Virus record (IMG/VR): IMGVR_UViG_2721755725_000012
Direction: 5' to 3' (one strand)
From: a virus
Taxonomy: Duplodnaviria > Heunggongvirae > Uroviricota > Caudoviricetes
Length of the DNA: 49,338 bases
In this document: positions 15,001 through 18,000 of the stretch, piece by piece
Position numbering within the stretch: position 1 is the stretch's first letter
Layout of the letters: every line of letters starts with the position of its first letter
Position numbers: made by a program

Positions 15001-18000
15001 CGGATAAGGTGCGCCCCAGACGGAGCGCAAGTCGCATCAGAAAGCGAATTTCCGGGCGGGCTACTTTTTTCTGGCCGACTCTGCATCAGCGATCAGTTCC
15101 AGTGCCTGACGCAGCAACCGGGCATGTACCGGACCATAGACGGCCAGCACCGGCTCACGGTCGTCCGGAGTGAACACCCGTTGCAGGTCAGTATCACACA
15201 GGACATCGCAGAACAGCGTCACATCCGCTTCCAGGTTACGGCGGGTTTTCGCCACCACCGACAGGGTATCGTCATCCTCTCCATCACCATTGAGCACTTC
15301 CTGCCACAGATACCAGGCCTCTGCCGAAGGCTCCCGCAGCACCACGCTGACATTACCCCATTCCGGCACCTTCACCGTTTTATGACGGAACCCCGACAGT
15401 CTGGCCAGCGCCAGTGTTTTCAGATCTTTTGCCATAAGCCTTATCCGCCCGCACCATTAACCGTTACTGTACACGCATCAGAGGTAATGCTCTGCGGCTG
15501 TTCTGCAGAATCCGTTACCTCGCAGGTATAAGCCCCCTTATCACCTGACTGCGTATTGGCTTTACTGAAAGTGTCAGTAGTCTGTCCCTCTACCGGCTGA
15601 CCATCCTTCTTCCAGGCGTGTTTATAAGGCGGCGTTCCCCGTTGACACTGACTGACATTGTCAGCAGCGCACCGGTATTCACGGCAAGTGTCTTCTCCGG
15701 ATTTTTCACAAACGCCAGCGGTACCACATAGGACACCGGTTTACCCTTCAGGCGAAGTGAAAACGTTGCAGCCACCACGCCGTTGGTACCGGATGACCAG
15801 GTGTGCTGACGCACTTCCGCCAGGAACTTAAAGCCCTTACCGGACGGAAACTGCACCTTAAACGCATACACCGTGTCATTGTCATAGGCATCACGCAGGG
15901 CGTTCTGGGCCTGATTCAGATAAAAATTACCCGACATGGAAATCTCGGACGACGCCCCCAGACCGTTGATGTTCTCCTGCTCTGTGGAGCAGAGCGTGGT
16001 CACATCAATATCCTGTTTCTGACCGGCGGTGAACTGGACTTCCTTGATGGTGCAGTCCAGGCGCAGATATTCCGCCTTATCCATAGTTTCAGCAGTCGCC
16101 GGGGCAGATGAAATCATCACCTGCGTCAGCTGTGAGCGTTCATACAAAGCAGACATTCTGCCTCCTGATAATAAAAAACCCGCACGCGGCGGGGTATGGG
16201 TTTTGTAGAAAAAAAGAAAAAGTCACACCGTGACCTGAAACTCCAGGGTTGCACGGTAACAGCGGTTTTCCGGAATATAGTCCTGCATTTCACTGACGGA
16301 TCCCGGGGCCAGCAGCATTATGGCTTCACGGGCGTCCTGACGTATCTGACGCGCCTGCGTCACAGTCCCGGCATAAACGTCTATCTGCACCGACACTGAG
16401 GACTCCGCCTGCCCGCCCATCACGTCCGCAGACACCGATGAAATCAGGCTGAAAACCACCCACGGAAGCGCCACCGACGGCCTGCCATCCAGCAGGGGGA
16501 CCACATACGGGTACACCTGCCCGCCGGCAAGATGCGCCAGATGAGGATACAAATCCGCCTCCGTCATCGTCTCAGTACCTCATCAATGGCCCGGTTCATC
16601 CGAGCAATCGCCACCTGCGCTGCCTGTTCACTGCGCACATCAAATGCCGGGCGCACAAACGGGTGCGGTGGCATATTCACGGTCCCCATTTCCACAAACC
16701 GCCAGTAGAAAGCATTGCGCGGGTTATCCGCCTTCATGGTGTTATCGCTGTTACCGGTGTCCGGATTAACACCACGGATATGGACACCGGATTCCATCCC
16801 GCCATCGCGGGAGCGCCGGGAAAGGACCACCACATTGCGGCGCAGTTTTCCCCTGCGTACCGGTGCCCGTGACACCACTTCTTCTTTCAGCACATTCGCA
16901 CCCGCACGGGTTGCCTCACGCAGCACCCGGTTATTTTCTGCACCACTCAGAAGCTGCAAATCGCGGCTGATGTCCTCCAGCCCCGAAAAATCCAGCAGGG
17001 TTTCGATCATTTTTCACCTCCCAGCCGACAGAGAATTTCCAGACGTCCGCCGGTCGCATCCGGCACGGGCAGCCCGACAACGTTCAGGATCCGGTCACGC
17101 CATGGACCACTCAGCACATGAAGTCGTGACGCTGCCGTGATTTCCCGGCCGGACTGACCGCGCACCCAGATGCGGATTTCCGCCTGCGCCATTTCCGCAC
17201 CGGACTGCATCCGCTCCCGGCTGCTCCTGCCACGGATATCCGCATGAATTTTCCCGCATGACACCCATTCTTCCGTCATTTCTCCGGCAGCATTACGGGT
17301 TAACACCGGGTTCAGAACACTTATCATCTGTGTCAGACGACCTGCAGATATTGCCATTCCCCCTCCTCATAACACCGTCGGACAACGCAAATCGTAAATC
17401 AGCACGGAAACAGAAAACGGCAGCTCCCCCTGAATCAGTTCTTCCCGCTCCGCAAGATCCGGATTCCGGTACAGCATCCCGGTCAGTCGCATGGCAGCCC
17501 CCTTCATCCGGGTTAATGCCTCGCCCGGGATCAGTTCACCGTCCTCACGAATCACCTTATCCCGGCTGCCCTGAATGTAGGCCAGCAGCACGGCGGTAGC
17601 CTGACGAACCTTGTCCATCAGCATGTCATCATCCGCGTCATGGTCGACACGCAGATGTGCCTTGATCTCTTCCAGTGTCAGTAATGCCGTCATTTTCCGC
17701 CTCCTGCATCCCGTCCACGTTTGGCAGCCAGGGTCCAGCCTGATGAATGAGCTTCTCCGGGTTTATCACCGGTCATACTGTTGCAGTGCCACAGCGAGCC
17801 CCCCCACGTCACCGTATCACCGGGGTGGTAGGTTTCACCGGCTCTGAACACACCGCGGTAGAGCATCACCGGCAGGGAAAATGTTTTTTCCGTACGCTGG
17901 CCACTGCTCTGCCGGACCACCACAGTGAACGACCGTTCGCCGGTCATGCTGACGTCAATATCGGCCACCCCGTCAACCAGGCATTCCCATCCCCGCATCC

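What the first reader, a model, noticed from the sequence alone, without database searches (positions are those of the whole stretch)
15441..15720. Major tail protein V has its Ig-like C-terminal domain in the -1 frame
The V reading frame stops at 15590, but the -1 frame over 15441-15650 encodes a convincing Ig-like domain (...AWKKDGQPVEGQTTDTFSKANTQSGDKGAYTCEVTD...ACTVTVNGAGG) ending 5 nt before the G start. From the V start to this stop is 716 nt, one short of a multiple of three. Both frames are open between about 15590 and 15720, which contains a C4/G4 run (15637-15640) and a T5/A5 run (15703-15707). This is either a programmed frameshift that decorates a fraction of tail subunits, an inactivating 1-nt deletion, or a sequencing error in a homopolymer.
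Basis: seen in the sequence. Interest (0 to 1): 0.6.

Follow-up and report, generated by a model that had tools for sequence, protein, structure and literature searches.

The report
One-base deletion splits tail-tube gene
The tail-tube gene of this E. coli O111 prophage is broken by the loss of one G from a run of five, a change seen in no other copy of the gene, so it is an ordinary mutation or sequencing error and not a programmed frameshift.

Summary
On the minus strand the major tail (tube) gene starts at 16156 and its frame stops at 15590-15592. The -1 frame then runs on to a stop at 15441-15443, 5 nt before the tail chaperone gene, a span of 716 nt.

The interpretation as a programmed frameshift fails.
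- Related copies carry one uninterrupted 717-nt gene (238 aa) with GGGGG where the window has GGGG (15637-15640). Restoring one base gives a gene 100% identical in DNA to that of E. coli O111:H- 11128.
- The four-G form was found nowhere else: 0 of 2857 copies in 1224 complete E. coli genomes and 0 of 92 phage records. It was also absent from IMG/VR, the GTDB representative genomes and the metagenome contigs.
- The break lies inside the Ig-like domain, after residue 173 of a domain spanning about 149-235. Neither product would therefore carry a whole Ig fold.
- The overlap has no slippery heptamer, no downstream RNA structure (z = +0.74) and no start codon for the Ig fragment.
- The true programmed frameshift of this tail module is nearby: A AAA AAG at 15070-15064, in the G-T chaperone genes.

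Whether the deletion is in the strain's DNA or only in the assembly cannot be decided without reads.

The parts
15590..16156 (-). Tail-tube (major tail subunit) ORF as written in the window. It encodes 188 aa: residues 1-173 are native, followed by 15 out-of-frame residues (ERRLINTPGRRMVSR) and a stop.
   Evidence: Pfam Phage_tail_2 scores 25.9 bits (cut-off 23.8) on residues 50-141. PHROG 158 'major tail protein' scores E = 4e-117 for the repaired protein.
15637..15640 (-). Site of the frame change. The window has GGGG on the coding strand (CCCC on +), whereas all relatives have GGGGG.
   Evidence: Alignment with O111 11128 and phage BP-4795. Base-by-base comparison with strain SD134209.
15441..15638 (-). 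Remainder of the tail-tube gene, now in the -1 frame. It encodes GTPPYKHAWKKDGQPVEGQ...ACTVTVNGAGG and a stop at 15441-15443, that is, strands C to G of the Ig-like domain. There is no start codon of its own.
   Evidence: Pfam Ig_2 scores 31.2 bits on this fragment, and the Ig_3 and I-set matches begin only at profile positions 23-25. No minus-strand ORF of at least 30 aa ends at 15441.
15459..15712 (-). Full extent of the Ig-like (I-set/Ig_2 type) domain, residues about 149-233 of the repaired 238-aa protein. It is interrupted at 15637-15640.
   Evidence: Pfam I-set 149-222, Ig_3 152-215 and Ig_2 159-233 on the intact homologue. PDB alignments to 9ncf_S, 9c2d_S and 5lxk_A cover residues 137-238, with individual Ig repeats aligning from about residue 146-158.
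15061..15435 (-). Tail assembly chaperone (G-like) gene. Normally it starts 5 nt after the tail-tube stop.
   Evidence: PHROG 344, E = 2e-45. Annotation of relatives.
15064..15070 (-). Canonical -1 slippery heptamer A AAA AAG at the end of the G-like gene. It leads into the T-like ORF (15037..14756). This is the real programmed frameshift of the tail module and was used here as a positive control.
   Evidence: Heptamer scan. The -1-frame translation ...QKKVARPEIRFLMRLALRLGRTL runs into the T ORF. The T-like ORF matches PHROG 337 and the fused PHROG 14766.

Best explanation
The window carries a non-programmed loss of one G from a G5 homopolymer (coding strand; C5 to C4 on the + strand at 15637-15640). 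[quoted passage not shown]

Shown: in all relatives the tube domain and the Ig domain form one continuous 238-aa protein. As written, the window encodes only a 188-aa product: an intact tube domain, the first two Ig strands and 15 junk residues. The remaining 65 codons of the gene are untranslated.

Inferred: no recoding is involved. By analogy with lambda gpV and SPP1 gp17.1, such a truncated protein could probably still polymerise into a bare tail tube. It would lack the surface Ig decoration and might lose efficiency. Ribosomes would also stop about 155 nt before the chaperone gene instead of 5 nt before it.

Whether the base is missing from the strain's DNA (a private mutation in a prophage) or only from the assembly (a homopolymer under-call) cannot be decided from the sequence. 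I put it at roughly even odds, leaning slightly to an assembly error. O111 genomes hold 2-5 near-identical copies of this gene, and such repeats are where read-based polishing is least reliable.
For: - Frame-change site. Alignment shows GGGG in the window against GGGGG in O111 11128 and phage BP-4795. In those records the gene is one 717-nt CDS ending 5 nt before the chaperone gene. Restoring one base gives DNA 100% identical to the 11128 gene.
- Private allele. An 80-nt probe across the site finds no exact match among 1229 E. coli records (2857 places) or 92 phage records. The five-G probe is exact in 537 records. A 35-nt exact pattern of the four-G form gives 0 hits in IMG/VR, the GTDB representative genomes and the metagenome contigs. 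The matching 36-nt five-G pattern gives 36 hits in IMG/VR. The 188-aa product is not on record in the gene-position index.
- Background. Window 1-25000 differs from strain SD134209 only by this deletion and one SNP that is private to SD134209. Window 24339-49338 differs from 11128 by one SNP.
- Ancestral arrangement. Homologues at 71% and 61% amino-acid identity have the tube and Ig domains in a single frame.
- Break inside the domain. See the Pfam and PDB alignments.
- No recoding signals. There is no X XXY YYZ heptamer in the two-frame overlap 15740-15590. The 85 nt downstream fold no better than shuffles: z = +0.74, with 154 of 200 shuffles folding at least as well.
- Functional analogy. 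Removing the lambda gpV C-terminal domain leaves tails formed but reduces activity 100-fold, and the SPP1 FN3 extension is dispensable (PMC8718954).
Against: Nothing in the data argues for recoding. The caveats are these. The public collections may simply not contain the source strain, so 'private' means private among about 2950 sampled copies. A low level of spontaneous slippage at any indel cannot be excluded by sequence analysis. The split between real mutation and artefact is unresolved. The window holds about 270 homopolymers of 5 or more bases, and only this one differs in length from near-identical relatives. The assembly is therefore not generally error-ridden.
Confidence: 0.95

Rival explanations
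1. Programmed -1 ribosomal frameshift. Most ribosomes would stop at 15590, and a fraction would slip at the G run and add the Ig domain, decorating a subset of tail-tube subunits as in SPP1 gp17.1/gp17.1*.
For: Two overlapping open frames exist (15740-15590). The extension encodes Ig-like sequence. There is precedent for Ig/FN3 extensions of major tail and capsid proteins made by frameshifting (PMC8718954; PMC5009743).
Against: - The arrangement is not conserved. There were 0 of about 2950 related copies with G4, and relatives down to 61% identity are in one frame.
- The shift point lies about 25 residues inside the Ig domain, so the 0-frame product ends in a broken domain. In known cases the extension starts after the shift.
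- There is no X XXY YYZ heptamer. On C-GGG-G a -1 slip would re-pair Gly-tRNA on CGG, whereas the run favours +1, which leads to a nearby stop.
- There is no downstream structure.
- The sequence is otherwise identical to in-frame genes, so no signal has evolved.
Confidence: 0.02
2. Phase variation. The G run would be a contingency tract that toggles between G5 (Ig-decorated tails) and G4 (bare tails) in the population.
For: The change is a homopolymer length change, which is the mechanism of slipped-strand phase variation.
Against: A run of five is far shorter than known phase-variable tracts (my own knowledge). No length polymorphism was seen at this site. G4 was found 0 times in about 2950 copies, and the G6 pattern gave 0 hits in IMG/VR against 36 for G5.
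Confidence: 0.01
3. The Ig-coding stretch is a separate gene translated on its own.
For: It ends with its own stop codon just before the chaperone gene.
Against: No ATG, GTG or TTG gives an ORF of at least 30 aa in that frame. The fragment lacks the first two strands of the domain. No homologue has it as a separate gene.
Confidence: 0.005
4. Sub-case of the best explanation, not additional probability. The missing base is an assembly or sequencing error and not a real mutation in the strain.
For: Under-calling of a G/C homopolymer is the typical residual error of long-read assemblies (my own knowledge). The gene is present in 2-5 near-identical copies per O111 genome (places_in_record), where short-read polishing is unreliable. 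The indel is one of only about two private differences in 49 kb. The truncated protein is absent from a 153-billion-gene index that includes assemblies of raw runs.
Against: About 270 other homopolymers of 5 or more bases in the window show no length difference from relatives. Prophage genes are under relaxed selection, and another copy of this gene (IMG/VR locus L004) is independently disrupted at a different site.
Confidence: 0.5

Closest known systems
Major tail subunit WP_001275472.1 of EHEC lambdoid prophages and Stx phages (O111 11128, SD134209, phage BP-4795 ORF64, Stx2 phage 1717)
   Same: After one G is restored, the DNA is 100% identical to the 11128 gene. The gene order is the same: tail completion protein gp17, tube protein, G-like chaperone, T, tape measure.
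   Different: The window lacks one G of the G5 run, so the gene is split between two frames.
Bacteriophage lambda gpV (tail-tube protein with a C-terminal Ig-like domain)
   Same: The architecture (N-terminal tube domain plus a C-terminal Ig-like domain displayed on the tube) and the gene position are the same. There are weak Pfam matches to the lambda-like tail-tube families Phage_TTP_11 and Phage_TTP_12. In lambda the C-terminal domain can be removed with tails still formed (PMC8718954).
   Different: The Ig domain here is of the I-set/Ig_2/Ig_3 type, not Big_2. The tube domain passes only the Phage_tail_2 cut-off. It is therefore a positional and functional equivalent of V, not a close homologue.
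SPP1 gp17.1/gp17.1*, the Listeria phage A118/A500/PSA tail proteins and the T3 capsid protein: Ig/FN3 extensions made by programmed frameshifting
   Same: A structural protein with an Ig-type C-terminal extension encoded in another frame (PMC8718954; PMC5009743).
   Different: In those cases the arrangement is a conserved feature with a shift site ahead of the complete domain. Here the frame change is unique to one record, lies inside the domain and has no shift signal.
Ig domains of the T5-like head decoration protein pb10 (PDB 5lxk, 8zvi) and of the multi-Ig phage proteins 9ncf_S and 9c2d_S
   Same: These are the closest solved relatives of the Ig domain (E = 1e-13 to 6e-32). tblastn identity to T5-like phage decoration genes over residues 144-236 is about 52%.
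   Different: Those domains sit on capsid decoration or other tail proteins, not on a tube protein. They are evidence of domain shuffling and are not orthologues.

Membership tests
Programmed ribosomal frameshift that adds an Ig-like extension to a phage structural protein | A slippery sequence at the point where the frames must change (X XXY YYZ for -1) | tested here: not met
   There is no canonical heptamer in the overlap 15740-15590. The frame-change context is C AAC GGG GAA. The same scan finds A AAA AAG in the neighbouring G gene.
Programmed ribosomal frameshift that adds an Ig-like extension to a phage structural protein | The two-frame arrangement is conserved among related phages | tested here: not met
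   No other copy has G4: 2857 places in E. coli genomes, 92 phage records, IMG/VR, GTDB representatives and metagenome contigs. Relatives down to 61% identity are in one frame.
Programmed ribosomal frameshift that adds an Ig-like extension to a phage structural protein | The extension domain is encoded wholly downstream of the shift, so that both products are complete folds | tested here: not met
   The break comes after residue 173, while the Ig domain spans about 149-235. The -1-frame fragment matches Ig_3 and I-set only from profile positions 23-25.
Programmed ribosomal frameshift that adds an Ig-like extension to a phage structural protein | A stimulatory element (downstream RNA structure or upstream SD-like sequence) | tested here: not met
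   The 85 nt downstream fold at -15.3 kcal/mol against a shuffle mean of -17.6, z = +0.74. An SD-like element was not searched for separately.
Programmed ribosomal frameshift that adds an Ig-like extension to a phage structural protein | Two protein products in a fixed ratio in virions | not testable with these tools
   This needs virion proteomics or reporter assays.
Siphophage major tail (tube) protein with a C-terminal Ig-like domain | An N-terminal tail-tube domain | tested here: met
   Pfam Phage_tail_2 scores 25.9 bits (cut-off 23.8). PHROG 158 'major tail protein' scores E = 4e-117 for the repaired protein.
Siphophage major tail (tube) protein with a C-terminal Ig-like domain | A C-terminal Ig-like domain in the same polypeptide | tested here: not met
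In the window as written the domain is split by the frame change, so this copy is a disrupted member.
Siphophage major tail (tube) protein with a C-terminal Ig-like domain | The gene lies between the tail completion protein and the G/T chaperone genes, upstream of the tape measure gene | tested here: met
   Gene order in the window and in annotated relatives.
Phase-variable homopolymer (contingency) locus | A long tract with length polymorphism among strains or within populations | tested here: not met
   The tract is only 5 bases in relatives. G4 gave 0 hits in every collection searched, and G6 gave 0 in IMG/VR against 36 for G5. Within-population variation cannot be tested here.

The most novel reading that the evidence does not exclude
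The G4 allele is real in the strain. Rare spontaneous slippage (ribosomal, transcriptional or replicative reversion) at the G run would then still give a small fraction of full-length Ig-bearing tube subunits. That would be a snapshot of the first step by which an in-frame Ig extension could become a frameshift-dependent one, as has been proposed for the origin of such arrangements (PMC5009743).
Probability: 0.01. Interest if true: 0.35.

Novelty: already known. Interest (0 to 1): 0.05.

Why it matters
It matters little biologically. The result is mainly a caution: an out-of-frame Ig-like extension after a phage tail gene looks like a known kind of recoding. Comparison with near-identical relatives here shows a single-base homopolymer loss unique to one record. 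For annotation, the locus should be marked as a frameshifted (pseudo) major tail subunit gene, or corrected if reads show G5. If the deletion is real, this prophage would make tail tubes without their Ig decoration, or would depend on the 1-4 other copies of the gene in the same genome. This could slightly affect the infectivity of any particles it releases.

Tried and rejected
- Programmed -1 frameshift: rejected. There is no conservation, no slippery heptamer and no downstream structure, and the break lies inside the domain.
- The T5/A5 run at 15703-15707 as the shift site: rejected. The context G AAA AAT is not a canonical heptamer. A shift there would replace Ig strands A and B with CEKSGEDTCREYRC..., and relatives show no difference there.
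- Independent translation of the Ig fragment: rejected, because there is no start codon.
- Evidence that the prophage was already defective (PGAP calls the portal 'frameshifted'): not upheld. The first ORF holds a complete Phage_portal domain, and phage BP-4795 has the same two-ORF layout.
- Search for the source strain or for an independent occurrence of the G4 allele: nothing found. I used the exact-protein look-up, four exact-pattern scans and two BLAST collections. Real mutation and assembly error therefore could not be separated.
- Not done: no structure prediction and no large protein-database search was run. The near-identical DNA relatives already settled the question.

Full report
**What is in the sequence.** The genes here lie on the minus strand.
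- The major tail (tube) gene starts at 16156, and its reading frame stops at 15590-15592 after 188 codons.
- The -1 frame is open from 15740 and continues to a stop at 15441-15443. That stop lies 5 nt before the ATG (15435) of the tail assembly chaperone gene.
- From start to that stop is 716 nt, one short of a multiple of three.
- The -1-frame peptide ...GTPPYKHAWKKDGQPVEGQTTDTFSKANTQSGDKGAYTCEVTDSAEQPQSITSDACTVTVNGAGG matches Pfam Ig_2 at 31.2 bits against a cut-off of 27.

**Where the frame changes.** The window is a lambdoid prophage of E. coli O111, with the effector gene nleC at the left end and the integrase at the right end.
- In O111:H- 11128, in strain SD134209 and in phage BP-4795 the same gene is one uninterrupted CDS: 717 nt (238 aa) in the two genomes, longer in BP-4795, where an earlier start was annotated. 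It is annotated 'major tail subunit' and ends 5 nt before the chaperone gene.
- A three-way alignment shows a single difference at the junction: GGGG in the window against GGGGG in the relatives.
- Putting one base back gives a gene 100% identical in DNA to that of 11128.
- The native sequence is shared for 173 residues. The window then reads ERRLINTPGRRMVSR-stop where the relatives read GTPPYKHAWKKDG....

**How unusual the four-G form is.**
- An 80-nt probe across the site has no exact match in 1229 complete-genome E. coli records (2857 places, 1224 genomes) or in 92 phage records. Every best hit carries the one-base gap.
- The corresponding five-G probe is exact in 537 of those E. coli records. 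The identity of all the others rises by the amount expected from removing the gap.
- A 35-nt exact pattern of the four-G form is absent from IMG/VR, from the GTDB representative genomes and from the metagenome contigs.
- The matching five-G pattern occurs 36 times in IMG/VR and the six-G pattern never.
- The 188-aa product is not on record in the gene-position index.
- More distant homologues have the tube and Ig parts in one frame as a single tblastn piece. Examples are Escherichia phage vB_EcoS-689R5 (71% identity) and Klebsiella phage ST101-KPC2phi6.3 (61% identity).

The one-frame arrangement is therefore ancestral and general, and the split is private to this record.

**Background divergence.**
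- Over window 1-25000 the only differences from SD134209 are this deletion and one SNP at 16423. At that SNP the window agrees with 11128, so the SNP is private to SD134209.
- Over 24339-49338 the window differs from 11128 at one base, 43748.
- The window holds about 270 homopolymers of five or more bases. Only this one differs in length from these near-identical relatives.

**Why it is not a programmed frameshift.**
1. The arrangement is not conserved, as shown above.
2. The break is inside the Ig domain, not in front of it.
   - On the intact protein, I-set covers residues 149-222 (profile 3-83), Ig_3 covers 152-215 and Ig_2 covers 159-233.
   - On the -1-frame fragment, Ig_3 and I-set match only from profile positions 23-25.
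   - Alignments to the solved Ig domains of 9ncf_S, 9c2d_S and T5 pb10 (5lxk_A) run straight across '...LTMSVSVNGGTPPYKHAWKK...'.
   - The 0-frame product would thus end in a broken domain, unlike known cases.
3. The 151-nt two-frame overlap has no X XXY YYZ heptamer. At C-GGG-G a -1 slip would put Gly-tRNA on CGG. The run favours +1 instead, which runs into a stop within a few codons.
4. The 85 nt downstream fold no better than shuffled sequence: z = +0.74, with 154 of 200 shuffles folding at least as well.
5. The Ig fragment has no start codon of its own.

As a positive control, the same heptamer scan finds A AAA AAG at 15070-15064, at the end of the G-like chaperone gene. Its -1 frame reads into the T-like ORF. 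That is the well-known conserved G-T frameshift of long-tailed phages.

**Most likely mechanism and consequence.**
- Shown: one base is missing from a G5 run, and the sequence as written encodes a 188-aa protein. Its tube domain is intact (Phage_tail_2, residues 50-141) but it lacks a foldable Ig domain.
- Inferred from the literature: the truncated protein could probably still build a tube. Lambda gpV without its C-terminal Ig-like domain still forms tails, although activity falls 100-fold. The FN3 extension of SPP1 gp17.1* is dispensable (PMC8718954).
- Inferred from the data: a homologue in Escherichia phage ECP1 aligns only over residues 1-140. This suggests that the tube domain occurs without this Ig domain.
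- O111 genomes carry 2-5 copies of this gene in different prophages, so complementation or repair by recombination is possible.

**Real mutation or artefact?** The sequence alone cannot tell.
- For an artefact: under-calling a G/C homopolymer is the classic residual long-read error. Multi-copy prophage genes are also hard to polish.
- For a real mutation: the rest of the window shows no other homopolymer discrepancy. Prophage copies of this gene do decay: IMG/VR locus L004 has an independent 2-nt loss near codon 28, while the other 30 full-length IMG/VR copies are intact.
- I rate the two about equal, with a slight lean to an artefact.

**Comparison with what is known.** Ig-like and FN3 extensions of major tail and capsid proteins made by programmed frameshifting are established. 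Examples are SPP1 gp17.1*, Listeria phages A118, A500 and PSA, the T3 capsid protein and Lactobacillus phage A2 (PMC8718954; PMC5009743). Even the hopeful reading would therefore have been a new member of a known kind. The defining features of that kind were tested here and not met. The gene itself is a disrupted copy of a very common EHEC prophage tail-tube protein, which has the lambda-gpV-like 'tube + Ig' architecture but an I-set/Ig_2-type Ig domain in place of Big_2.

**Verdict.** This is an ordinary single-base homopolymer deletion, or a sequencing error, in a known gene. Interest is low.

Noticed in passing
window 15064-15070 (minus strand), with ORFs 15435..15061 and 15037..14756: A canonical -1 slippery heptamer A AAA AAG lies just before the stop of the G-like tail chaperone gene. 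The -1 frame reads into the T-like ORF. This is the known, conserved G-T programmed frameshift of long-tailed phages.
   Followed up: partly
window 17690-20436 (minus strand); tandem repeat at 18159-18850: The 'portal' region is two ORFs overlapping by ATGA. The first (20436..19072, 454 aa) has a complete Phage_portal domain. The second (19075..17690, 461 aa) has no convincing family match and contains a 162-nt unit repeated 4.3 times (96% matches), that is, a 54-aa protein repeat. PGAP labels these 'frameshifted/incomplete portal' in O111 genomes, yet phage BP-4795 has the same layout.
   Followed up: partly
window 15459-15712 (minus strand): The Ig domain of the tube protein is about 52% identical (tblastn) to decoration-protein genes of T5-like phages; the solved T5-type decoration proteins are PDB 5lxk and 8zvi. 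It also resembles the repeated Ig units of 9ncf_S and 9c2d_S. This is an example of Ig-domain shuffling between head and tail proteins.
   Followed up: partly
window 20648-22585 (minus strand): A 645-aa protein combines a prohead protease domain (Peptidase_S78, residues 48-152) with an HK97-type capsid domain (residues 386-635). The protease and major capsid protein are fused in one gene, which lies before the portal gene instead of after it.
   Followed up: no
window 8819-9741 (minus strand): An antirepressor-like gene lies between the tail genes and next to two Arc-family repressor genes. It is annotated as frameshifted in the near-identical SD134209 record, and the window has the same sequence there.
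   Followed up: no
locus L004 (IMGVR_UViG_2526164688_000038), 8107-8821: Another copy of the same tail-tube gene (99.4% identical) carries an independent 2-nt loss near codon 28 that destroys the frame. Sporadic disruption, or mis-sequencing, of this gene therefore occurs elsewhere.
   Followed up: partly
window 36081-37294 approx. (IS1203), 31580-31812 approx. (tRNAs), 1-987 (nleC): The prophage carries an IS1203 (IS3-family) insertion in its early region, tRNA-Arg and tRNA-Ile genes upstream of the lysis genes, and the type III effector gene nleC beyond the tail fibre genes. Coordinates were transferred from the 11128 and SD134209 annotations.
   Followed up: no
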